Below are positions 28,688 to 49,392 of a stretch of DNA of 64,000 nt, piece after piece. This stretch comes from a virus (taxonomy: Duplodnaviria > Caudoviricetes), in the IMG/VR virus record IMGVR_UViG_3300025924_000017, positions 128,001 through 192,000 of that record; one strand, given 5' to 3'. Numbering within the stretch: position 1 is the stretch's first letter; every line of letters begins with the position of its first letter. A program made the position numbers and the translations under genes. The notes under the pieces were generated by a model. That model was not told the DNA's origin. It saw nothing but the letters and a program-made list of their open reading frames with translations, and ran no database searches.

Positions 28688-28884
28688 TGGAGCCCGAAGA
28701 AGAAGAGTTTTCCTCGGTCATCCACGTCTATCCTGTGGGCGATTTCCGGACGCACAGTTGCAGTCTCTCGGAACCGTGCTGGTGCGGGCCTGAGATAGAT
28801 GAAGACCATAATGGCACCTTGGTCGTCCATAAGAGCCTCGACGGCCGAGAAAAATACGAAACCGGCGAACGGGTTGTGTCGTAG
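28687..28884 (+). CDS. Small Cys/His hypothetical protein
   Basis: H.YP..D...H......CWC.P......LVVH.SLDGRE. Confidence 0.55.
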   Translation: MEPEEEEFSSVIHVYPVGDFRTHSCSLSEPCWCGPEIDEDHNGTLVVHKSLDGREKYETGERVVS

Positions 28885-28914
28885 CTGTTGACACGACTGT
28901 CGTGGTTTGCGACA
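28877..28914. promoter_or_regulatory. Tandem palindromic operator sites over a TTGACA promoter
   Basis: TGTCG-N7-TGACA (28877-28893) and TGTCG-N7-CGACA (28898-28914). Confidence 0.6.
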
Positions 28915-34693: not shown

Positions 34694-35152
34694 ACATGGA
34701 AGACGAACATGCTGAAAGTCGCTGACAACAGCTTCGAACTCGCCTGCCGCGCCTATGCGGCCGGGGAGATCGATGTAGCCGAGTTGACGAGGCTCGCGCG
34801 CGAACGGGCGCAGCGGCGGATCGCCAATATGCAGGCTCGGCTTGAGGAACGGATGCGGGCGAAAGGGCTATCTGGCGACCGCAGGTAACGACCACCGCCG
34901 GGAGGCGGGTGGGAGTGGTGTCGTCGATCCGGACACAATGTCGTAGTTCTTGACAGACGATCCGGTTTCTGCTTCTATCCTCTCGTCCCCGCGCCGTCAC
35001 GCGCGGATTATCACCCCTCGGCGGACTGCCCACAAATTCTGGGGCGCCTGCGATGATCGCCGAGCAATTTGTTTCCTGCTGGACACGTTCGCCTGCGCAG
35101 CGACCCCAGCCGGTTTGTGTTTGATCGCGGCTTCGAATTGCGATCTCAGTCT

Positions 35153-35192
35153 GGAAGGCCCGAGGCGTTTTAGTTGCCGCCTCGGGCCTTCC
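35153..35192. terminator. Perfect 15 bp hairpin (terminator or processing site)
   Basis: GGAAGGCCCGAGGCG, 10 nt loop, CGCCTCGGGCCTTCC. Confidence 0.5.
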
Positions 35193-35219
35193 TATTTATG
35201 GAGGCTGCTGCCTTCACAT

Positions 35220-35294
35220 GGCGACATGCTCAGAGTGGTTATGGACCGGTCTGCAAAATCGGGTATGTGAGTTCGATCCTCACTGTCGCCTCCA
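35220..35294 (+). tRNA. tRNA-Cys(GCA)
   Basis: GGCGACA/TGTCGCC acceptor stem, CT-GCA-AA loop, TTCGATC T loop, encoded CCA. Confidence 0.9.
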
Positions 35295-35367
35295 AATTCA
35301 GATAGGGCACGTAGCGGCGGGATTACGAACCCCGGAATAGGGTGGGAGCGAGTCTCACATCTGCTGC

Positions 35368-35820
35368 GTGACCCTTCCAGTTGCACAACCCTTGACGGAA
35401 ATCGATTTCGCATACATCGCTGGTATGATCGACGGTGAGGGCACTATTACGCTCACACGTACCCATCCAAACCAGTTCCGGACACCCGTGCTCAGCCTTA
35501 GTAGTACGACGCCAGAATTGCTGCTTCCCGCACAAGAAGCGTTTGGCGGGCGCGTGCAGACCAAGAAAGCGTCTAAGGCACATCATGCGATCCCTTATGA
35601 ATGGAGATTGCGTGGTCATGCGGCCTTGCGAGCAATTGAGAGGCTGTTGCCATATCTAAGGCACCCGGAAAAAGCGAGGCGCGCTAAGCTACTCCTCGGC
35701 AACTATAACCGCGTGACGGTGCGCAACGGGAAATATACCGAAAGTCAACGCCACCAACGGCTGCTGTTCGAGAGCGAATTTCTTGGAGCGCCGGTGCAAA
35801 TATGTGTTGACAAAACATAA
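35368..35820 (+). mobile_element. Free-standing single-motif LAGLIDADG homing endonuclease gene
   Basis: FAYIAGMIDGEGTI motif; 150 aa; lies between tRNA-Cys and tmRNA. Confidence 0.85.
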
Positions 35821-35835
35821 TACTGCCGTTATACA
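35807..35835 (+). promoter_or_regulatory. Sigma70-like promoter of the tmRNA
   Basis: TTGACA-17 nt-TATACA overlapping the endonuclease stop codon. Confidence 0.7.
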
Positions 35836-35841
35836 CGACAA

Positions 35842-36198
35842 CATCGTTGTAACTCGGACTTCGAGGAGCACGGACCGGACTCGGGGGCAGTACCCGACCG
35901 CTCCACCAAAACCCCACCGGGGGTCTAACGCACGAACGGATCGGATAGACCCCGGCCCGTCTGACACAGTTCGGCCGCAATGCCGGATTGGGCGTCCCGG
36001 TGAGGTTTTGATGGGGCGGAAACAGGATCGACGGACGAGCGAGGCGCAGGGACGCAACGTGGATTGATCTCCAGTCCCTAACGGGATGCTCGATCAAAAA
36101 GACAGAAATGTCGCCAATGACAATGAGCCTGAGGCTCTGCGTTTCGCTGCCTAATAGGTAAGCGCGGTTGGGGAGAACCGGGCAACAGAATCTCCCCG
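35842..36198 (+). ncRNA. ssrA: Circularly permuted (two-piece) tmRNA; outer ends approximate
   Basis: Acceptor piece ends GGGGGCAGTACCC GA CCGCTCC A CCA (35908); coding piece starts GGGGCGGAAACAGGATCGAC (36013); tag (A)ANDNEPEALRFAA at 36113-36154; GGCAACAGAA 3' motif. Confidence 0.92.
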
Positions 36199-36204
36199 CT
36201 TAAT

Positions 36205-37830
36205 TCCCGGAGACGGGATAACGACTATCTCGCCTGCGGGCGAGGGATGGCGGCAAGTTAGATTCGTGGTTGATCCACGAACAGGTGCCTAAGTCAGGCG
36301 TCCGGGAGAACGCGACAAAGGAATCTCCCGACTGCTCTTTGACAATTTGGATCGAATGACACTGACGCCTGCCTTTGGCTTTGATCGTTGCAACGTGAAA
36401 AGCTGGTGAATTGGCGGACAATGGATTTGGTAGGGACTGACGATAGCGGCGAACCGCGCATAGTGGCGTTGTAACAATAGGGACCGATCCTGATCACACT
36501 CCGGTTCAAGTCCGGTACCGGTGAGCCGAAGTCAGGCGCCAGTGTCATGAGAACCTTCATAGGCGCATCACTCCACCGTAAGGCACGCCAAGGCCGGTCG
36601 GTGCAGAAGACGAGGGCTAGGGGCCTTGGCGGGCTCCGAAACAACGGGCCGGGCTTGTAACCCGGCAGTGGGACTAAGCCCCTCCCGGGCGGCGTGGGCC
36701 GTCTAACGTTGTAGTCGTGGTGTGTCTATGAAGGTTCTGAAACAGATAGGCCGATACAAGGGCTGTAAGACCTCACGAGGCATGCAGGCGTAGCGGCTAC
36801 CATTGTGCCACGGGATAAAACGCACCGTCGTCATGACACGGGAGCGCCGGGGTGAGCCGAGCGGGGAGCAGCTTGGGAACAGAATGCTCCAAGAATTTTG
36901 GCGGTTCGACTAAGGAAGTCGGCTCGATGATAGGTAGCACCCTTCGAGACAATCCGGTGTCAACTCCGGCCCGTCAGCCCAGTCAGTGTCGCCATTGCAG
37001 ACGGCGTGACACATTCCAAAACTAAATTGTCTGCAAGGCGTGTTTCTCGAAGCGCGAGTGCGGGGAGAGATGTAGCGATGAGCACCGGAAGAAGGCCAAC
37101 TCCAATCCGGCGCGACTGCGCAAACATGCGGTTGACTCTGAGCCGATAGTTGGTCTGTTGGCTCACAGACGCAGTCGAGAAGTCAACCGGCAGACCGGCC
37201 GTTGCGTTAGGTCACGAATTCCCGAAAGGGATAGCTGCGACGTCGAAAGACGCTAATGAGCAGGAAGGCCGTAACTCCTGTGCAGCGCAAACGGTCGCGA
37301 AATTCATAGCAGGGTCAACCCGACGAAGCTGAACGCGTCAGTGGAGGGTCGAAGCTAGGGCACGAGGACGACTCAAATCGTGTCTCTCTAGGGGTCAGGT
37401 AGATAATAGACCGTGCGGTGCGGTCTCCGATCCCAGCCGTTTGAATTCTCGGGGCGCATCAGAACGTCGAGCCCCATGCGAGACTTAAAGACGTGACGTT
37501 GGGAGAGGCCCATCCAGATTTGAGTTTGAGGACTCGGCGCGACCTTCACGGGTGCAAATCCCGATGGGTCCTCATTAGAGAGCTTTGGTTCGACCAATAT
37601 CGGTGATCGACGCAGGCGCAACGCCAATAAGGCGACCTGTACTAATCCGGAATAAGCTCTCGCCAGTTTTGAGTGTCACGACCCGTATCCCTACATTGGT
37701 CAAGATCGTGACGCGATAGTCTGTGGCAACCTGTGCCCGCGAGGGTGGCGTATCCAATCGCCTTAATGGCTAGACCACTGAGCGGTGTGGGCAAAGCAGC
37801 GAGATGGTGCAAGGCCATCGACAGAATTTA
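36205..37830 (+). ncRNA. Candidate giant structured ncRNA(s), GOLLD/ROOL-like class; boundaries uncertain
   Basis: No credible ORF; 15-16 bp long-range helices, several T-loop and GNRA hairpins; tRNA-cluster context. Confidence 0.65.
37803..37828 (+). repeat. 26 nt direct repeat, copy 1 (T-loop-like hairpin)
   Basis: GATGGTGCAAGGCCATCGACAGAATT. Confidence 0.9.
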
Positions 37831-37839
37831 AGGACGTGT

Positions 37840-38130
37840 ATGGACCTCAAGACTCTTCAGGACGAAGTTAGCAAGCGCTGGGCGCGTCAGGTTGGCAACC
37901 CGTGTCACAATTCGGCGGGAGCCAATCACGCTCTCGTCCACATGATGAAGGCCCTTGGTAAGGTCGCTTCTGCACTCAACGATGCCGAACATGAAGGCCG
38001 TGGTGTGCAAGCGAACGAAGTCGAAAATTACCTCGCCGATCTGGTGATCTGCGCAGCGCGATTTTCCGATGGTGTCGTCGATCTCGGCGCTGCATGCGCT
38101 GCTCGACTTGAGGAGAAATTTCCGATCTAA
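37840..38130 (+). CDS. MazG-like nucleotide pyrophosphohydrolase fold protein
   Basis: LKTLQDEV...HALVHMMKALGKVA...EVENYLADLVI...DL......LEEKF. Confidence 0.65.
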   Translation: MDLKTLQDEVSKRWARQVGNPCHNSAGANHALVHMMKALGKVASALNDAEHEGRGVQANEVENYLADLVICAARFSDGVVDLGAACAARLEEKFPI

Positions 38131-38138
38131 TCGGACGT

Positions 38139-38164
38139 GATGGTGCAAGGCCATCGACAGAATT
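38139..38164 (+). repeat. 26 nt direct repeat, copy 2
   Basis: Identical to 37803-37828. Confidence 0.9.
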
Positions 38165-38166
38165 AA

Positions 38167-38246
38167 AGCGGGGTAGAGGAGCCCGGTCGTCCTCGCCAGC
38201 CTCATAAGCTGGAAATCGTGTGGTTCGAATCCCACCTCCGCAACCA
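38167..38246 (+). tRNA. tRNA-Met(CAT), initiator-like
   Basis: AGCGGGG/CTCCGCA with 1:72 mismatch, CCAGC-CTCATAA-GCTGG, TTCGAAT, CCA. Confidence 0.8.
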
Positions 38247-38250
38247 GTTA

Positions 38251-38323
38251 GGGAGTGTCCCGGTTCGATTCCGGGGTGGCGCGGAAGTACCGCCCATTAG
38301 GCTTAGTGGTAGAGTCTTCTCCC
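38251..38323 (+). ncRNA. Circularly permuted tRNA-like element (YrlA/Y RNA-like topology)
   Basis: Order is T arm, loop-closed acceptor stem, D arm, all closed by GGGAG/CTCCC. Confidence 0.6.
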
Positions 38324-38457
38324 GCGAAAAAAGCGGAAACGGGCGGTTCGACTCCGCTCCCTGCATTATGTCGGTGAAGCTGACCGGCAGCCGAGGGTCG
38401 CTCCCACGGTGAAACCCGCAGGTCGTCTAAAGGTCAGGACGCCGCTGGACTTATTGA

Positions 38458-38534
38458 TGTGCTTTAGCTCAGTCAGACAGAGCGCCGGATTCATATCCCG
38501 GAGGTCGCCGGGGCGGAACCGGCAAGCACTACCA
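38458..38534 (+). tRNA. tRNA with CAT anticodon (Met or Ile2) and non-canonical T loop
   Basis: GTGCTT/AAGCAC acceptor stem, GCTC/GAGC D stem, TTCATAT loop, T loop GGCGGAA, CCA. Confidence 0.7.
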
Positions 38535-38760
38535 ACACCTGTCCCAATGTAGAGTTTCATTGAAAATGCCGCTGGTTTCATAGCGGTGACTTTCGCTTTT
38601 GCTACCTCGGCCAAAGCCGAATCGCTCCATTACGGCTCCTCTGAGCCTTCGATTCGGAAGTCGCCGACACACACGCAGGCTGTTGATGGAAATCGACAAC
38701 GGTCGCCCGTGCGATTGCAGTCGGCCCGAGCGCCTTACACCTCCAGCATTGGAGGTAAGC

Positions 38761-39072
38761 ATGTCCGACATTGTCGTCAGGGCTTTGATCAAGCGCCGCG
38801 CGAAACTCGCCCACGAGATCGAGGAAACCCACGAGCGCCTGCGTCAGATGGCGCTCGATTTGGTGAACCTCGACGCGACCCTGCTCCAATTTGATCCAAA
38901 ATTGGAAATCGAGACGATCCGGCCCCGCGCCTTCCGTCCGCCGATGGATTGGGCCAAGCGTGGCGGGATGATGCGGTTAATTTACGGCGTCTTGCGCCGG
39001 GCCGTCGAACCGCTCACCAACGCCGGACCGAAGGGCGCGCCAGATCGGAGAGCACGATCAGAGGGTGTGTAG
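38761..39072 (+). pseudogene. Probably truncated homolog of a common alphaproteobacterial hypothetical protein
   Basis: ALIKRRAKLA.EIE...LD..L..FDP...FRPP.DWAKRG.M.RL...LR.A.EPLT, then the sequence degenerates. Confidence 0.45.
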
Positions 39073-39244
39073 GCACAACCGATAGCCCACTACCGGTGGA
39101 AGTCCGGCTCATCGCCTACGAGGCGATTGGGGCGCCCTGCGGGGCGCTCCTCAAACACCCTTGACAGACTGCCGCCAAACATGACATTCAGAACGCCCGG
39201 TTTAACCAAACCGGGCATTTTGCGTTTGGGAGTGTTGACAAAAA

Positions 39245-39616
39245 GTGGTCGGACAGGCTCAATTCTTCACCGAAGATGAGGCGGCAGCGTTTTTGAAGAT
39301 GACGCCGCGCATGCTCGCGGAACGGCGTCGCGCCGGGAAGATCGGGCATCATAAAGAAGGCCGATACGTTTCCTACAATCTCGACGATCTGTTGGCTTAC
39401 AGCGCGCGCATCCGGGAGAATGGAACTTGTCAAGAAGTCGGAAAAGCACCGTCGCTCGGATTGGGCAGCACGGCCCATACTGGCTCAGCAAGCGCACCGG
39501 CTCAGCCAATTGGCACCTCACGTACTACGACGAACAAAGGCGGAAGACCGTCCAAGAGAGCCTTGGCACAACGGACACAGCAGCCGCAGAAGCCCAAGTT
39601 GTTGCCCATTATCTAG
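39245..39616 (+). CDS. Excisionase-like HTH protein
   Basis: FFTEDEAAAFLKMTPRMLAERRRAGKI...GR.V.Y...DL; overlaps the integrase start. Confidence 0.75.
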   Translation: MVGQAQFFTEDEAAAFLKMTPRMLAERRRAGKIGHHKEGRYVSYNLDDLLAYSARIRENGTCQEVGKAPSLGLGSTAHTGSASAPAQPIGTSRTTTNKGGRPSKRALAQRTQQPQKPKLLPII

Positions 39617-40608
39617 CGACACTCCCAAATAACAAACCGCTCAAGGAAGAGGAAGCGACGTTCCACAGCGTCCTTGACCTCTACTATGAGACCTATGGCA
39701 AAAAGCTTGCGAGCGCGGGCGATGTCAAGCTCTCGATCAAATACTGGAAGGAAGCCATCGGTCCCACTGTCACGCTGGATAAGGTGACGATTGGGCTCGT
39801 GGAGGCCTTCATCGAGCAACTGCGGGGACTGGGCTTCTCGGAAGGCTACATCAGCCGCATTCTTTCCGTAGCACGGGCGGCCGTAAAGCGCGCGCTTCGT
39901 ACCGGTAAGATCAGCGTCGCGCCCTTCATCCCCGACAACGAAAATCGCCGCCAGAAGCTCAACAAGAAGCCTAAAGGGCGTCCGCTGGAATTGCGCGAGA
40001 TGGCTATCCTCTTCCTGTGCGCCGATCCTGCACACCTGCGTGTGTTCATGAGCTTGATGATCAACACGCTCTGCCGCCCTGACGCCGCGCTCGATCTCGG
40101 ACCGGCTCAGATTGACCTCGACAAAGGGGTCATCTTCCTCAACCCCGAGGACCGCGCCCAGACCAACAAGTTCCGACCTGCGGTCCCGATCACGACCGGC
40201 GTCCGTCCCATCGTCGAGGGATGCCCGGCTGAGGCGTTCGTCAATGTGGATGGGCATAAGATCGGCGAGATCAAGAAGGCTTGGCGCACCATGGTGCGGC
40301 GGTCTGGCCTACCCAATGCCGACCGCATCAAGCCCTATTCGATCCGCCACACCATGGGGCGAGAGCTTCGCGCAGGCGGGGCGTCCGGGGAGGACGTGAG
40401 CCTCTTCCTCGGGCACATTCCGGTCGGCGCAAACGAGGTCACGAGCGTCTACAGCCCCTACGATCCCAACTACCTGAAGAAGGCCGTCACGATCATTGAG
40501 GCCTACTGGGATCGGCTGCGGTGGGAGGTCGAGAAGCAGGCTGCGGTATTCACGCCACCGCCACTTCAGCCCGGCAAGCGGAACGATCTCCTCCAGAACG
40601 CCGCGTGA
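39427..40608 (+). CDS. int: Tyrosine integrase
   Basis: 393 aa with arm-binding N-terminus; TLCRP (R), YSIRHT, LGH, VYSPY; adjacent to attP. Confidence 0.9.
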   Translation: MSRSRKSTVARIGQHGPYWLSKRTGSANWHLTYYDEQRRKTVQESLGTTDTAAAEAQVVAHYLATLPNNKPLKEEEATFHSVLDLYYETYGKKLASAGDVKLSIKYWKEAIGPTVTLDKVTIGLVEAFIEQLRGLGFSEGYISRILSVARAAVKRALRTGKISVAPFIPDNENRRQKLNKKPKGRPLELREMAILFLCADPAHLRVFMSLMINTLCRPDAALDLGPAQIDLDKGVIFLNPEDRAQTNKFRPAVPITTGVRPIVEGCPAEAFVNVDGHKIGEIKKAWRTMVRRSGLPNADRIKPYSIRHTMGRELRAGGASGEDVSLFLGHIPVGANEVTSVYSPYDPNYLKKAVTIIEAYWDRLRWEVEKQAAVFTPPPLQPGKRNDLLQNAA

Positions 40609-40821
40609 ACAAAACAGCATTCGAAATCGTCCAAGACGTTGAAAGTGCGCCGTGTTCTCTGTGGCGAAACTGCGACGAAAGTGCGGTGAAATGCACGTAA
40701 AGTCGTGTATCGTGACGTAACCAAATGTAACTGACGCGATCTACGGCAAAATCACCCCGAAATGTCAGACCCTAAAAATTACCGTAAAACCTTGATTTTC
40801 CTCGATTTTATCTGAATTCAC

Positions 40822-40870
40822 TGGTCGGAGAGAGAGGATTCGAACCTCCGGCCCCCACGTCCCGAACGTG
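40822..40870 (-). other. attP core: 3' half of host tRNA-Pro(CGG)
   Basis: Minus strand CACG-TTCGGGA-CGTG GGGGCC GGAGG-TTCGAAT-CCTCT CTCTCCG ACCA, no D arm or 5' half; about 210 nt downstream of int. Confidence 0.85.
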
Positions 40871-40939: not shown

Positions 40940-42889
40940 TCATTGAACTTTTGTTGGTCTGCGGCTGTCCATCACCGCAACAATATGTTCTTCCTTCTCG
41001 TACGCCCGCTGAGCCATCTTACAATCCAGAGACCCGTTCGCTGTCAAGAAGAAGCCCATCAGCTTGTCCGCCAACTGCCCGATACGGCAGATGCGGTCGA
41101 AGTCCTGTTCCAGCTTCGTGGGTACCCAGTCGCCCTCCAAGAAGGCGCAGTCCTTTGCCCGGGTGAGGGTGTAGCCGACGCCGCCGGAGTCGTGCTGGAG
41201 GAAGATGATCCGGCAGTTCTCGTCGTCTTGGAACTTATCGACGCGACCCTGCCGCTTGTTCGGCGCGACCCCGCCGTAGATCAGCATCGGGTCGTAGGCC
41301 GCCATAGCCTCCTGTGCAGCCTTGAGCACGTCGGTGTGGTAGCCGAAGCAGACCAGCTTTTCGCCGCCGTCTAGGAACGTCTTGAGCCACGGGATCGCAG
41401 CGGAGAGCTTTGCGAGGCCTAGCTCCCGGCGGACCGACGCCATCTCCTCGAACAGGACGGCGATGGCGGGCGGCTCCAGTCCGAGAACCGAGGTCGCATA
41501 GTCCATGTTGAGCGCCCGGCTGTTCGGCTTGTCGCGGTCGTACATGGCGTCCTCGAAGCCCAAGAGGCTCGCCGCCCTGACGATCTGGGAGCCTTCGACG
41601 CCCTCGCGCCGGATGCGGTCCGCCTCGCTCTCGTTCTCCCGGACCATCGCCTCGTAGAGCTTGAGCGCCTGTGCGAGTTCGTCCTCTCGCGCGACGACCT
41701 GCCTGATCTCCGGGCTGTCGAGGATGATGATCTGGCGCGACTTGGGTGGAAGCTCGGGGAGCACCTCCGCCTTGAGACGGCGGATCATGAAGGTCGAGCG
41801 AATTTTCTCGCCTAGCTCCTCCAGATTACTCGCGCCGGAGAAGTTGTAGTCGCCTTTCCGGCGCCCCTTCTCGTCGTAACCGCCGAGGGTCTGATCCCAA
41901 TAGCCGCCACAGTAGCGATAGCCGAACTGAACTCGACCGCTGTCGGGGTCACGCGGATCGGGATTTCGTCCGAGACCATCCGGGTCGAACGCCTTGATCA
42001 TCGGCCACAGTTCGATGGGCCGGTTCATCATCGGTGTGCCGGTCAGGAAGATGCGCCGGTTCGCTTCGATGGCGCTGTACCAGACGGGCTTCCATCCGGT
42101 GGACTTGTCGCGCTTCTTACCGCCGAGGATGAAGAGTGTGCGTCCGCTGTCGGCCGTCTTCAGCGCGTGCGCTTCATCGCAAATCAAAAGGTCCCACGAA
42201 ACGGCTTTGATCTGATCGTGGAAACGACTCAGGATGTCGTAGTTGATAATGACGACGTCAGTATCGGGCCAGAATTCCTTGATGATCTCTTTGGTGCGAA
42301 AGCGCGGCTGGCCTTTACGCTTGCCCGACTTGAAGACGCCGATCTGCTCTTTGACTTCGAGGTTTGTCTCAGCGATGCCGACCGAGACGTTCTTGGTCTT
42401 CCAGAGTTCAAACTCGCGGCGCCAGTGTTCCTTAAGCGACGCCGGGGCGACGACTAGGCAGCGGCGCGCTTTCGGGTCGCCATTGAACACGCCGACGCCC
42501 ATGGGGGACTTGCCGAGCCCCGGCTGATCGCCGATGAGCGTGTCTTTGCGTTGAAGCGCGTATTCGATGCCCGCACACTGATAAGGGAAGAAGGCGAACG
42601 GCAGCCCGGTGCGCGGATGCATCCCCGGTGGAACCGGCGGCTCGTAGTGTGTGCTGTTGGCGAAGGAGAGGTCGTAGGACGCCGCCAGCGTCTCTTGGCG
42701 CGCAATGACGTGCGCAAGCGCTGCGGGCGTCCATTCGACGCCCTGCACGCGCTCGGCGATTTCCTGACTGTCGGTGATCCATGCCTTGCGGACGGGAGAC
42801 CATTTGAACCCGGCGCCTTTCCATAGCGCTCGTTCGTCCCATGTCCCAAGGCCAAAGAAGAACCCGTTCTTGAAGTGAATGCGGGCCAA
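40940..42889 (-). CDS. SNF2/SWI2-family helicase-like ATPase
   Basis: DQPGLGKS, ICDEAH, LTGTPMMN, Q..DRI.RIGQ. Confidence 0.88.
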   Translation of the reverse strand: MARIHFKNGFFFGLGTWDERALWKGAGFKWSPVRKAWITDSQEIAERVQGVEWTPAALAHVIARQETLAASYDLSFANSTHYEPPVPPGMHPRTGLPFAFFPYQCAGIEYALQRKDTLIGDQPGLGKSPMGVGVFNGDPKARRCLVVAPASLKEHWRREFELWKTKNVSVGIAETNLEVKEQIGVFKSGKRKGQPRFRTKEIIKEFWPDTDVVIINYDILSRFHDQIKAVSWDLLICDEAHALKTADSGRTLFILGGKKRDKSTGWKPVWYSAIEANRRIFLTGTPMMNRPIELWPMIKAFDPDGLGRNPDPRDPDSGRVQFGYRYCGGYWDQTLGGYDEKGRRKGDYNFSGASNLEELGEKIRSTFMIRRLKAEVLPELPPKSRQIIILDSPEIRQVVAREDELAQALKLYEAMVRENESEADRIRREGVEGSQIVRAASLLGFEDAMYDRDKPNSRALNMDYATSVLGLEPPAIAVLFEEMASVRRELGLAKLSAAIPWLKTFLDGGEKLVCFGYHTDVLKAAQEAMAAYDPMLIYGGVAPNKRQGRVDKFQDDENCRIIFLQHDSGGVGYTLTRAKDCAFLEGDWVPTKLEQDFDRICRIGQLADKLMGFFLTANGSLDCKMAQRAYEKEEHIVAVMDSRRPTKVQ

Positions 42890-48984: not shown

Positions 48985-49392
48985 TTGATGCTCAATCCGC
49001 GTACTGCGATCCGGCGCATCAAACGCGTCCTCACACCCGATTTGCTGAAGCCCGCATATCGCTTCATGGCGTCGGCTACCAACCCGACCGCCGGTCATTG
49101 CTACCACGCGACCGAAGCACTCTTTCACATACTCGGCGGCTACGAGAGTGACTGGGTCCCGATGCGTGTGCGTGAAGAAGACGGCATGACCCATTGGTGG
49201 CTGCGCAATCGCAAGACCGGCAAGCGCGCCGATCCCACTGAAGATCAATATCGCCTCGTCGGCGAAGAGCCACCGTACGAGCACGGCAAAGGCGGAGGCT
49301 TTCTCACGCGCCAGCCTTCCAAGCGTGCCGCCGAGATCATTCGGCGTGTCATGAAAACTGACTATGGTGACGTAATTCTTGACACACTCTGA
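48985..49392 (+). CDS. Conserved phage hypothetical protein
   Basis: GHCYHATEA...HWWL...DPT.DQY motif. Confidence 0.6.
   Translation: MMLNPRTAIRRIKRVLTPDLLKPAYRFMASATNPTAGHCYHATEALFHILGGYESDWVPMRVREEDGMTHWWLRNRKTGKRADPTEDQYRLVGEEPPYEHGKGGGFLTRQPSKRAAEIIRRVMKTDYGDVILDTL

What the first reader, a model, noticed from the sequence alone, without database searches (positions are those of the whole stretch)
34939..40870. RNA island next to the integration module: possible translation-protection system
Seen: an operator-overlapped promoter (34939-34955) heads a co-oriented series of structured leader, tRNA-Cys, HEG, tmRNA, giant RNA candidate, MazG-like gene, tRNA-CAT, permuted tRNA mimics and a second tRNA-CAT, ending at xis/int/attP. 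Only three tRNAs are present against about 2.5 kb of other structured RNA. Inference: this is a co-processed RNA toolkit (ribosome rescue, decoys, scaffold RNA, nucleotide or alarmone hydrolase) instead of a codon-supplementing tRNA cluster.
Basis: inference. Interest (0 to 1): 0.7.

Follow-up and report, generated by a model that had tools for sequence, protein, structure and literature searches.

The report
Phage RNA-gene island beside integrase
A 225-kb temperate relative of Caulobacter phage phiCbK keeps a family-conserved cluster of translation RNAs (tRNA-Cys, its own tmRNA, two tRNA-CAU) next to a working integration module. In this lineage a 1.5-kb untranslated, apparently folded RNA of no known family sits in that cluster, while some relatives carry the giant GOLLD RNA at another position in it.

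Summary

Corrections:
- The genome holds 28 more tRNAs 60 kb away. The island supplies the only tRNA-Cys and two of three CAU tRNAs.
- The tmRNA has its own promoter-like -35 box, kept in seven phages. Terminator-like hairpins separate xis/int from the RNA genes.
- The endonuclease and MazG-fold genes are lineage-specific inserts.
- The MazG-fold family lacks conserved catalytic glutamates.

Synteny: Cys, tmRNA and two CAU tRNAs beside the same helicase recur in most of 12 relatives examined. GOLLD sits in this island in phiCbK, BL57 and Bajun. X matches no Rfam family. Its one relative shares collinear blocks and a closing helix with compensatory changes, and an rrn-type boxA precedes X.

attP is real: another assembly holds the phage integrated at tRNA-Pro(CGG).

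"Translation-protection system" remains inference. I read this as a conserved translation-RNA locus with insertions, one a candidate new large RNA. The scan showed nothing like it on other DNA.

The parts
34939..34955 (+). Promoter-class motif TGTCGTAGTTC + TTGACA (the -35 box is at 34950-34955)
   Evidence: 3 copies in the window against 0.02 expected. Conserved in L086.
34980..35219 (+). Untranslated leader with a 15-bp perfect hairpin (35153-35192) followed by a weak U tract, directly in front of tRNA-Cys
   Evidence: z = -4.9 for 35100-35219. Inverted repeat I10. L086 has a different strong hairpin plus a T-rich tail at the same place.
35220..35294 (+). tRNA-Cys(GCA), the only Cys tRNA in the genome
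   Evidence: ARAGORN and Rfam 47.5 bits. The main array lacks Cys.
35305..35374 (+). Conserved long-stem, two-hairpin RNA element just after tRNA-Cys; it overlaps the endonuclease start codon
   Evidence: z = -4.1; the L086 counterpart has z = -2.6 and a different stem sequence, although L086 has no endonuclease gene.
35368..35820 (+). Free-standing single-motif LAGLIDADG homing endonuclease gene (150 aa)
   Evidence: phrog_5046 E 1.5e-22. Pfam LAGLIDADG_3 at 17 bits is below cut-off. Weak matches to I-MsoI and I-CvuI. Absent from L086.
35807..35812 (+). -35 box (TTGACA) of the tmRNA's own promoter, inside the 3' end of the endonuclease ORF
   Evidence: TTGACA at the same distance upstream of the tmRNA in all 7 phages compared.
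35803..36245 (+). Two-piece (circularly permuted) alpha-type tmRNA, tag VANDNEPEALRFAA
   Evidence: RF01849 102.8 bits, RF04321 84.6 bits, ARAGORN permuted tmRNA.
36333..36345 (+). rrn-type boxA TGCTCTTTGACAA between the tmRNA and X
   Evidence: Single exact match in 64 kb, 0.14 expected. Not conserved in L086.
36245..37800 (+). X: about 1.55 kb untranslated region, candidate large structured RNA
   Evidence: No Rfam hit at E<=10. No genes called. GC by codon position is flat at 0.59/0.55/0.57. No Pfam or PHROG hits for its ORFs. G>C and A>T skew on the + strand. Collinear conserved blocks with L086 at 36440-36489, 37216-37236 and 37467-37480.
36352..36552 (+). X domain D1: long closing helix around the conserved blocks ACGATAGC and ACAATAGGGACCGA and a T-loop-like hairpin
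   Evidence: z = -2.85. RNAalifold with L086: 35 pairs, 9 with both sides changed, 3 of them in the closing helix.
36548..36740 (+). X domain D2: 22-bp closing stem around a multi-hairpin junction; lies in the stretch that is about 500 nt longer than in L086
   Evidence: z = -5.17, 0 of 200 shuffles fold as well. Inverted repeat I3.
37800..37832 (+). First copy of a 33-nt direct repeat (small hairpin) bracketing the 96-aa gene
   Evidence: 94% identical to 38136-38168. Hairpin z = -2.4.
37840..38130 (+). 96-aa protein with the all-alpha NTP-pyrophosphohydrolase (MazG/DCTPP1) fold
   Evidence: Gene called in two assemblies. pLDDT 93.6. Nearly all of the top 50 PDB fold matches are MazG, DCTPP1 or HisE, TM 0.6-0.75, but E about 0.15 and none at E<=0.001. 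No Pfam hit. Family invariants are W14, H30, H34, K37, K41, H51, A66, D67 and R89.
38136..38168 (+). Second copy of the 33-nt repeat, abutting the 5' end of tRNA-CAU-1
38167..38246 (+). tRNA-CAU-1, initiator-like acceptor end (1:72 mismatch, ...CCGCAACCA), one bulged base in the T stem
   Evidence: ARAGORN and Rfam 45.4 bits. 83% identical to phiCbK tRNA-Met. Features read from the sequences.
38247..38457 (+). Spacer with two T-arm-like hairpins and GGGAG/CTCCC closures ('tRNA mimic')
   Evidence: Blocks shared with L086, including a compensatory change in the second hairpin stem (GCGG/CCGC against CGAG/CTCG). Fold z only -0.5 to -1.1. No Rfam family.
38458..38534 (+). tRNA-CAU-2 with a non-canonical T loop (GGCGGAA) and a D loop without GG
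   Evidence: Rfam 43.7 bits. ARAGORN finds it only at a relaxed threshold. Loop features read.
38567..38597 (+). Terminator-like hairpin plus T-rich tail after the last tRNA
38761..39072 (+). ORF of 103 aa, no known family
   Evidence: Called in two assemblies. GC3 0.74. No Pfam or PHROG hit.
39195..39225 (+). Terminator-like hairpin in front of the xis promoter-like TTGACA (39235)
39245..39430 (+). Excisionase-type HTH gene (xis)
   Evidence: Pfam HTH_17 E 1.2e-5. PHROG excisionase families. 64% nucleotide identity with L086.
39427..40608 (+). Tyrosine integrase (393 aa)
   Evidence: Pfam Phage_integrase 32.4 bits. phrog_1 E 1e-36.
40821..40869 (-). attP core: the 3' 49 nt or so of a host tRNA-Pro(CGG) gene
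   Evidence: Identity with the integrated copy ends exactly at 40820 on one side (L087). On the other side the core completes a full host tRNA-Pro (L151).

Best explanation
This is the conserved second RNA locus of the phiCbK-like jumbo phages. It is a small set of working translation RNAs that completes the phage's own decoding set: the only tRNA-Cys, an initiator-like tRNA-CAU, a second tRNA-CAU and a two-piece tmRNA.

In this temperate lineage several unrelated pieces have been inserted into it:
- a free-standing LAGLIDADG homing endonuclease gene;
- a MazG-fold gene cassette bracketed by a 33-nt duplication;
- a roughly 1.55-kb untranslated segment, X;
- the xis/int/attP module next door.

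Likely working (inferred):
- There are at least three transcription units. The 34950 promoter drives the leader, tRNA-Cys and possibly the endonuclease gene. The tmRNA's own promoter at 35807 drives the tmRNA. Read-through, protected by the boxA at 36333 as in rRNA operons, would carry RNA polymerase through X, the 96-aa gene and both tRNA-CAU to the hairpin at 38567. xis/int are expressed separately.
- RNase P, RNase Z and RNase E would release the tRNAs and tmRNA pieces.
- Together with the 28-tRNA array and an RtcB ligase elsewhere in the genome, the locus would make phage translation less dependent on host tRNAs and ribosome rescue.
- X is most likely a folded RNA of its own family. Some relatives carry GOLLD elsewhere in this island. 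What X does is unknown.
For: - Core synteny beside the helicase in 12 relatives.
- The island tRNAs do not duplicate the main array, which has no Cys and one CAU.
- A tmRNA-specific TTGACA is kept in 7 phages.
- boxA has one exact match against 0.14 expected.
- Terminator-like hairpins lie at 38567 and 39195.
- The endonuclease and 96-aa genes are missing from L086. A 33-nt duplication brackets the 96-aa gene, and its homologues lie in unrelated contexts.
- X has no genes, no codon periodicity and no protein families. It shares collinear blocks with L086 and a closing helix with compensatory changes. Its subdomain D2 folds with z = -5.2.
- GOLLD lies in this island in phiCbK, BL57 and Bajun, on the other side of the tmRNA and on the opposite strand; a fourth match lies about 14 kb from the helicase in an IMG/VR relative.
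- Integration is shown by both junctions.
- RtcB and RlaP are in the genome.
Against: - No expression data: promoters, boxA function, read-through and processing are all inferred.
- boxA is not conserved in L086.
- X has only one known relative, so covariation rests on two sequences.
- Most 300-nt windows of X have unremarkable fold z-scores, -0.5 to -1.2, and L086's X has z = -1.0.
- X does not sit where GOLLD sits in relatives. X is between the tmRNA and tRNA-CAU-1 on the same strand. GOLLD is on the other side of the tmRNA on the opposite strand.
- tRNA-CAU-1 has a bulge in its T stem, and its L086 counterpart scores only 24.5 bits, so one or both may be decaying.
Confidence: 0.6

Rival explanations
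1. One reading: the island is one co-evolved, co-processed translation-protection system. Its parts would be ribosome rescue by the tmRNA, tRNA decoys or mimics, a scaffold RNA and a nucleotide or alarmone hydrolase, and it would act against tRNA- or ribosome-targeting host defences and toxins.
For: - All parts are co-oriented and tightly packed.
- The core is syntenic across the family.
- tRNA-CAU-2 has an altered T loop and D loop, and the spacer has T-arm-like hairpins conserved in L086.
- The genome also carries RtcB, a ligase for broken tRNAs.
- Published work shows that phage tRNAs can defeat anticodon nucleases, retron effectors and PARIS (PMC10264068, PMC11555353, PMC11464382).
- GOLLD, present in relatives' islands, pulled down ribosomes according to PMC12286853.
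Against: - The hydrolase and endonuclease are lineage-specific inserts that occur elsewhere without RNA genes.
- The MazG-fold family does not conserve the acidic metal-binding motif.
- There are several promoter-like and terminator-like sites rather than one operon.
- The island tRNAs fill gaps in a 28-tRNA set, so they look like ordinary decoders.
- The spacer matches no Y-RNA or other Rfam family, and the phage has no Ro gene.
Confidence: 0.2
2. X is not a functional RNA. It would be fast-evolving spacer built from decayed RNA genes or insertion scars (old tRNAs, remnants of mobile elements), with a few functional signals such as boxA, processing hairpins and small stems.
For: - BLAST and nhmmer find nothing alike in the family relatives' loci. 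Against L086 only short blocks of 14-21 nt match, while neighbouring genes are 70-77% identical.
- X length differs two-fold between the two phages, 1.55 kb against 0.82 kb.
- Other relatives have only 21-275 nt at this position.
- Most windows have weak fold z-scores.
- Relaxed ARAGORN settings give weak tRNA-like calls inside X.
- A covariance model of D1 finds no further copies.
Against: - The conserved blocks are collinear.
- The closing helix of D1 is kept through compensatory changes.
- D2 folds far better than shuffles.
- A boxA in front is what a long untranslated transcript needs.
- A phage that packs genes tightly elsewhere keeps 1.5 kb here.
- A strict scan for tRNA architecture finds no excess of tRNA-like units.
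Confidence: 0.25
3. X is a very divergent GOLLD or ROOL that the Rfam models miss.
For: - GOLLD occurs in this same island in phiCbK, BL57 and Bajun. GOLLD also lies elsewhere in a 278-kb IMG/VR relative.
- Bajun's copy scores only 104 bits, below the family cut-off, so divergence inside the family is large.
- The GOLLD 5' half is known to vary (PMC12286853).
Against: - No match even at E<=10 in a 4.6-kb search, and none in the whole genome.
- No sequence similarity to the phiCbK GOLLD region.
- Different position and strand relative to the tmRNA.
Confidence: 0.07

Closest known systems
Phage and prophage tRNA islands that carry GOLLD or ROOL giant ornate RNAs (Weinberg 2009; Kretsch et al. 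2025, PMC12286853; Mycobacterium tRNA arrays, PMC6582537)
   Same: A large, ORF-free, apparently folded RNA lies among phage tRNA genes. Relatives of this phage (phiCbK, BL57, Bajun) carry a true Rfam GOLLD in the same island, with a tRNA-like unit inside its linker, as described for GOLLD.
   Different: X matches neither the GOLLD nor the ROOL model. It shares no sequence with the relatives' GOLLD, lies on the other side of the tmRNA, is preceded by a boxA, and has only one known relative.
The tRNA-Cys / tmRNA / tRNA-Met locus of phiCbK-like phages (Dolichocephalovirinae: phiCbK, Rogue, Colossus, Bajun)
   Same: The same gene set sits beside the same convergent SNF2-type helicase (52% identical). 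The tmRNA is the same two-piece type with a related tag (…ANDN…AA). The first tRNA-CAU is 83% identical.
   Different: Here tRNA-Cys is co-oriented with the tmRNA. X and a MazG-fold gene separate the tmRNA from tRNA-CAU-1. An endonuclease gene and a working xis/int/attP module have been added. The phiCbK paper reported no RNA genes other than tRNAs (PMC3556154).
T4 tRNA cluster with co-transcribed stable 'species 1 and 2' RNAs and homing endonuclease genes (textbook knowledge)
   Same: Phage tRNAs are transcribed together with non-tRNA stable RNAs and released by host RNases. Free-standing homing endonuclease genes sit among them.
   Different: T4 has no tmRNA, no kilobase-sized RNA and no integration module.
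Phage tRNAs as counter-defence against anticodon nucleases, retron effectors and PARIS (PMC10264068, PMC11555353, PMC11464382)
   Same: Phage-borne tRNAs, some with altered loops, could keep translation running when host tRNAs are cut. An RtcB ligase is also in the genome.
   Different: No defence target is known for tRNA-Cys or tRNA-CAU in this host. Nothing here was tested functionally.
Bacterial Y RNAs (YrlA) with a tRNA-like domain
   Same: The spacer at 38247-38457 has T-arm-like and D-arm-like pieces in a non-tRNA order.
   Different: It matches no Rfam Y RNA family at E<=10. No Ro (TROVE) gene is in the phage. Fold statistics are unremarkable.

Membership tests
Two-piece (permuted) tmRNA, Rfam RF01849 / RF04321 | Covariance-model score above the gathering cut-off; acceptor piece before coding piece; tag ORF ending in ...AA | tested here: met
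   102.8 bits (cut-off 50) and 84.6 bits (cut-off 47). ARAGORN calls a permuted tmRNA with tag VANDNEPEALRFAA.
tRNA (RF00005) | Cloverleaf covariance-model score above 29 bits | tested here: met
   47.5, 45.4 and 43.7 bits for 35220, 38167 and 38458. No other match in 34700-39300 at E<=10.
GOLLD RNA (RF02032) | Match to the conserved 3' domain model (cut-off 150 bits) | tested here: not met
   No match at E<=10 in the island or in the whole 225-kb genome. The same model gives 165-170 bits in phiCbK and BL57 and 104 bits in Bajun.
ROOL and all other Rfam 15 families | Any covariance-model match | tested here: not met
   A scan of 34700-39300 against 4227 families at E<=10 gave only chance-level hits in 36245-37800.
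rrn-type boxA antitermination site | Sequence TGCTCTTTAACAA or a close variant on the transcribed strand ahead of a long untranslated RNA (consensus from established knowledge of E. coli rrn operons) | tested here: met
   TGCTCTTTGACAA at 36333-36345 on the + strand is the only match in 64 kb, 0.14 expected. Binding of NusB/NusE cannot be tested with these tools.
LAGLIDADG homing endonuclease | LAGLIDADG motif and family profile match | tested here: inconclusive
   The motif IAGMIDGEGTI is present. Pfam LAGLIDADG_3 scores 17 bits, below the 22.5 cut-off. phrog_5046 matches at E 1.5e-22. PDB matches to I-MsoI and I-CvuI are weak, E 0.06-0.1.
MazG / all-alpha NTP pyrophosphohydrolase | Four-helix fold | tested here: inconclusive
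   The model has pLDDT 93.6. Nearly all of the top 50 Foldseek matches are DCTPP1, MazG, YpjD or HisE with TM 0.6-0.75, but E is about 0.15 and none reaches E<=0.001.
MazG / all-alpha NTP pyrophosphohydrolase | Conserved acidic metal-binding motif (EExxE ... ExxD) and Pfam PF03819 or PF12643 match | tested here: not met
   No Pfam hit for the protein. Only 1 of 43 family members hits each of MazG and MazG-like, at E 0.002-0.005. The family invariants are W14, H30, H34, K37, K41, H51, A66, D67 and R89, with no invariant glutamate.
Tyrosine-integrase integration module | Integrase domain, excisionase-type HTH, attP sharing a core with a host tRNA gene, and observed attL/attR junctions | tested here: met
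   Phage_integrase scores 32.4 bits and HTH_17 has E 1.2e-5. The integrated copy in a 389,787-bp contig has junctions at window 40820 and at a complete tRNA-Pro(CGG).
Y RNA (YrlA-like) tRNA mimic | Rfam Y RNA model match and a Ro (TROVE) partner gene | tested here: not met
   No such match at E<=10. No TROVE domain in the phage genome. A host Ro gene was not examined.

The most novel reading that the evidence does not exclude
X (36245-37800) and its shorter counterpart in contig L086 are the first two members of a new class of giant phage RNA. It would be made as a boxA-protected untranslated transcript downstream of the phage tmRNA, and it would do in this temperate lineage what GOLLD does in phiCbK and Bajun, for example forming a multimeric particle that engages ribosomes or tRNAs.
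Probability: 0.3. Interest if true: 0.75.

Novelty: new variant of a known kind. Interest (0 to 1): 0.5.

Why it matters
- Phage tRNA islands that hold giant RNAs (GOLLD, ROOL) are known, but the function of those RNAs is not. One phage family that carries GOLLD in some members, an unrelated large RNA in others and neither in the rest, all in one island, offers a natural swap experiment. phiCbK and its Caulobacter host are genetically tractable.
- The tmRNA and GOLLD of phiCbK itself were not reported in the original genome paper.
- The window documents, with both junctions, that a 225-kb phiCbK-like phage can integrate at tRNA-Pro. Until now temperate behaviour in this group was only suggested from recombinase genes (PMC13459779).

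Tried and rejected
- The 96-aa protein and the helicase as single-protein queries in IMG/VR found no close relatives. A helicase alignment found only relatives at 53% identity or less, none with X.
- Motif scans for X blocks gave nothing usable. The 56 IMG/VR hits for ACAATAGGGACCGA look like chance: apart from this genome's own stretch and L086, only four had a T-arm-like or GATAGC motif nearby, and none looked like X (L124/L138 lie in an unrelated tRNA array). The metagenome scan returned only a duplicate of L086 and an unrelated tRNA-Tyr. The genome collection returned none.
- 401 sampled genomes of the order that includes Bradyrhizobium held no prophage with this helicase.
- A covariance model of X domain D1 found only its two training sequences in 21 sources.
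- A strict scan for tRNA architecture in the island gave no excess over shuffles (6 against a mean of 4), so X is not an array of canonical tRNA-like units. Relaxed ARAGORN calls inside X, including a 'CTA' tRNA at 37353, are treated as chance.
- I looked for a Cys-codon leader peptide in front of tRNA-Cys. A 23-codon ORF with two Cys codons exists at 35054, but L086 has no counterpart, so I dropped the idea.
- Sliding-window fold z-scores do not separate X from its neighbours.
- Relatives at 63-65% helicase identity (L089, L180, L181) have no RNA island on the short contigs available. L180 again has an integrase beside the helicase.

Full report
**Where the window lies.** The window is bases 128001-192000 of a 225,611-bp IMG/VR virus record. 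Its SNF2-type helicase (40940-42889, minus strand) is 50-53% identical to that of phiCbK, Rogue, Colossus and Brevundimonas phage Bajun. The phage is therefore a distant member of the phiCbK-like group (Dolichocephalovirinae). ARAGORN on the whole record finds 28 tRNAs at 93-102 kb, outside the window, plus the three RNA genes of this island.

**Checking the parts.**
- ARAGORN and Rfam agree on tRNA-Cys (35220-35294), a permuted alpha-type tmRNA (35803-36245; 102.8 and 84.6 bits; tag VANDNEPEALRFAA) and a tRNA-CAU (38167-38246).
- Rfam adds a second tRNA-CAU (38458-38531, 43.7 bits) that ARAGORN sees only at a relaxed threshold.
- The motif at 34939-34955 (TGTCGTAGTTCTTGACA) is one of three copies of TGWCGTANNTNTTGACA in the window, against 0.02 expected. 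It is conserved in the nearest relative.
- The leader folds strongly: z = -4.9 for 35100-35219, with a 15-bp perfect hairpin just before tRNA-Cys.
- ORF 35368-35820 carries the motif IAGMIDGEGTI and matches phrog_5046 at E 1.5e-22. It matches I-MsoI and I-CvuI weakly, and Pfam LAGLIDADG_3 is below cut-off.
- The small gene is 37840-38130 (96 aa), as called in two independent assemblies.
- Pfam finds HTH_17 in the xis ORF and Phage_integrase in the 393-aa ORF.

**The integration module works.** The same phage occurs in an ENA contig of 389,787 bp.
- On the helicase side, identity (99.98%) ends exactly at window 40820 and unrelated genes follow (L087).
- On the integrase side, the 49-nt core (40821-40869) continues into a complete tRNA-Pro(CGG), followed by GST, spermine-synthase-like and LemA genes (L151).
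- One flanking protein is 76-77% identical to Bradyrhizobium proteins, so the host is probably a related alphaproteobacterium.
- The prophage span in that contig, roughly 14 kb to 239 kb, equals the record length.
- The window shows the attP form, and a second assembly breaks inside the core (L088).

**Synteny.**
- In phiCbK, BL57, Karma (L031), Colossus, PW, Bajun, Rogue, BL10 and the metagenomic contigs L007, L086 and L149, tRNA-Cys and two tRNA-CAU lie just beyond the same helicase. L007 shows only one tRNA-CAU. ARAGORN or Rfam finds the tmRNA in all but Rogue and BL10.
- L086 (helicase 78% identical) also has an integrase beside the helicase. So does L180 at 65%.
- L086 lacks the endonuclease gene and the 96-aa gene. 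It has another ORF and a tRNA with a CUA anticodon instead.
- A 33-nt direct repeat (37800-37832 and 38136-38168, 94% identical) brackets the 96-aa gene. The second copy abuts tRNA-CAU-1, as expected for a cassette inserted just upstream of that tRNA.
- Close homologues of the 96-aa protein (62-72% identical) lie in a plasmid-like context and in a phage NUDIX/chaperonin/sigma block, with no RNA genes nearby.

**The MazG-like gene.**
- It has no Pfam or PDB sequence match, only phrog_27761 of unknown function.
- An AlphaFold model built from 43 homologues is confident (pLDDT 93.6). Nearly all of its top 50 PDB fold matches are DCTPP1, MazG, YpjD and HisE (TM 0.6-0.75, but E about 0.15).
- The family's invariant residues are W14, H30, H34, K37, K41, H51, A66, D67 and R89. 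No glutamate is invariant, so the usual acidic metal site of MazG enzymes is not conserved.
- The fold is supported. The enzymatic activity is doubtful.

**Transcription units.**
- A TTGACA sits at the same place upstream of the tmRNA in all seven phages compared. In this phage it lies inside the end of the endonuclease ORF.
- Plus-strand terminator-like hairpins follow the last tRNA (38567-38588) and precede the xis promoter-like TTGACA (39195-39216 and 39235).
- I first read the TTGACA at 36339 as another -35 box. A first-stage note pointed out that 36333-36345, TGCTCTTTGACAA, is an rrn-type boxA. It is the only match in 64 kb, with 0.14 expected.
- A boxA on the plus strand after the tmRNA fits read-through into a long untranslated RNA. 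It is not conserved in L086.
- The island is therefore co-oriented, but it is not one promoter-headed operon.

**The 1.55-kb region X (36245-37800).**

Evidence that it is non-coding:
- No gene is called in either assembly.
- GC by codon position is flat at 0.59/0.55/0.57, against 0.61/0.44/0.75 in the integrase gene.
- Its ORFs hit no Pfam family and give only chance-level PHROG matches (E 0.013 and above).
- It has no internal repeats.

Strand: G>C and A>T skews and lower fold energies favour the plus strand.

Family membership:
- No Rfam family matches at E<=10, and GOLLD is not found anywhere in the genome.
- GOLLD scores 165-170 bits in phiCbK and BL57 and 104 bits in Bajun, in this island. 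It scores 164 bits in a 278-kb IMG/VR relative, about 14 kb from the helicase.
- In phiCbK, BL57 and Bajun, GOLLD lies on the other side of the tmRNA, on the opposite strand, just before tRNA-Cys. In phiCbK and BL57 a tRNA-like unit sits in its linker, as published for GOLLD (PMC12286853).
- Rogue, BL10, Colossus and PW have no GOLLD.
- In relatives the spacer between the tmRNA and tRNA-CAU-1 is 21-275 nt. In L086 it is 821 nt, and here about 1920 nt including the 96-aa gene.

Comparison with L086:
- X and the L086 spacer show no BLAST-level similarity but share collinear blocks. These are ACGATAGC and ACAATAGGGACCGA plus a T-loop-like hairpin (36440-36517), GAATTCCCGARAGGGATAGC (37216-37236) and TCGAGCCCC (37467-37480).
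- RNAalifold on the first domain predicts a long closing helix kept in both, with three compensatory double changes. Overall 9 of 35 pairs changed on both sides.
- D1 has z = -2.85. The adjacent 193-nt domain D2, with a 22-bp closing stem, has z = -5.2. D2 lies in the stretch that is about 500 nt longer than in L086.

Weak points:
- Other windows of X and the whole L086 spacer fold no better than shuffles.
- Only two members exist. All motif scans, a covariance model and a 401-genome search found no more.

I put X as a real structured RNA at roughly 0.5-0.6, and as a new functional class of large phage RNA at about 0.3.

**Smaller RNA elements.**
- A long-stem, two-hairpin element directly after tRNA-Cys (35305-35374, z = -4.1) is conserved in L086 with a different stem sequence, even though L086 has no endonuclease gene. 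It is therefore an RNA feature in its own right.
- The spacer between the two tRNA-CAU genes shares several features with L086: TTAGGGAG, a T-arm-like hairpin, CTCCCGCG, a second T-arm-like hairpin with a compensatory stem change, and GGGTCGCTCCC.
- That spacer's fold statistics are ordinary and it matches no Rfam family. The phage has no Ro gene, so a Y-RNA-like reading is not supported.
- Read by eye, tRNA-CAU-1 and its relatives keep a 1:72 mismatch and an fMet-like acceptor end but lack the three G-C pairs of initiator anticodon stems.
- tRNA-CAU-2 has a GGCGGAA T loop and a D loop without GG.

**What it means.** The main array has no Cys tRNA and one CAU tRNA. With the island, the phage has Cys and three CAU species, the number a bacterium needs for initiator Met, elongator Met and Ile2. 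That argues for working tRNAs rather than decoys. The genome also carries RtcB and RlaP. The phage clearly invests in its own translation machinery, and published work shows that phage tRNAs can defeat tRNA-cutting defences (PMC10264068, PMC11555353, PMC11464382). Nothing here links this particular island to a defence, and the two protein genes are recent passengers. I file it as a conserved translation-RNA locus with lineage-specific insertions, one of which is a candidate new large RNA.

**Literature.** The phiCbK genome paper states that Rfam found no RNA elements other than tRNAs (PMC3556154). The tmRNA is annotated in later records such as Bajun. I found no paper that links GOLLD with Caulobacter phages. 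Phages Senya and Shash were called temperate on the strength of a recombinase gene alone (PMC13459779).

Noticed in passing
window 39245-40869; L087:11950-12100; L151:11180-11480: A 225-kb phiCbK-like phage is found both as the attP form and integrated at a host tRNA-Pro(CGG) in a 389,787-bp contig. Both junctions are exact, and the host flank is Bradyrhizobium-like. This looks like the first sequence-level proof of lysogeny in this phage group.
   Followed up: yes
L002:13406-13892 (phiCbK NC_019405), L003:13569-14055 (BL57), L005:13071-13489 (Bajun): An unannotated GOLLD RNA lies between the tmRNA and tRNA-Cys. The annotated 'tRNA-Gly' of phiCbK and BL57 lies inside the GOLLD linker.
   Followed up: partly
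L002:11952-12319 and the same spacer in L003, L004, L006, L008, L010: Caulobacter phages share a conserved block of about 250 nt between their two tRNA-CAU genes that is not a tRNA (GCGTGACA...GGAGAGAACG...TATGAGGCCGGA). It is probably another unnamed structured RNA.
   Followed up: no
L086:15156-15228 and L086:11009-11083: The nearest relative carries a tRNA with a CUA (amber-reading) anticodon between tRNA-Cys and the tmRNA. It also has a complete tRNA-Thr(GGU) beside its integrase.
   Followed up: no
genome 211068-212237 (-) and 7793-8587 (+), outside the window: RtcB RNA ligase (435 bits) and an RlaP nucleotidyltransferase are encoded by the phage. No Ro/TROVE gene is present.
   Followed up: partly
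window 28877-28893, 34939-34955, 49368-49384: A shared promoter-class motif TGWCGTANNTNTTGACA occurs 3 times against 0.02 expected. It suggests one regulator for three units.
   Followed up: partly
window 35054-35125: A 23-codon ORF with two Cys codons lies in the leader before tRNA-Cys and ahead of a terminator-like hairpin. It is not conserved in L086, so an attenuator reading was dropped.
   Followed up: partly
L124:10412-10975 and L138:10562-11125: AT-rich phage contigs hold a 560-nt insert that is not a tRNA inside a tRNA array. The array includes a tRNA with a UUA (ochre-reading) anticodon.
   Followed up: no
window 38761-39072: A 103-aa gene with no known family and strong codon bias lies between the last tRNA and xis. 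No equivalent gene is called in L086.
   Followed up: no
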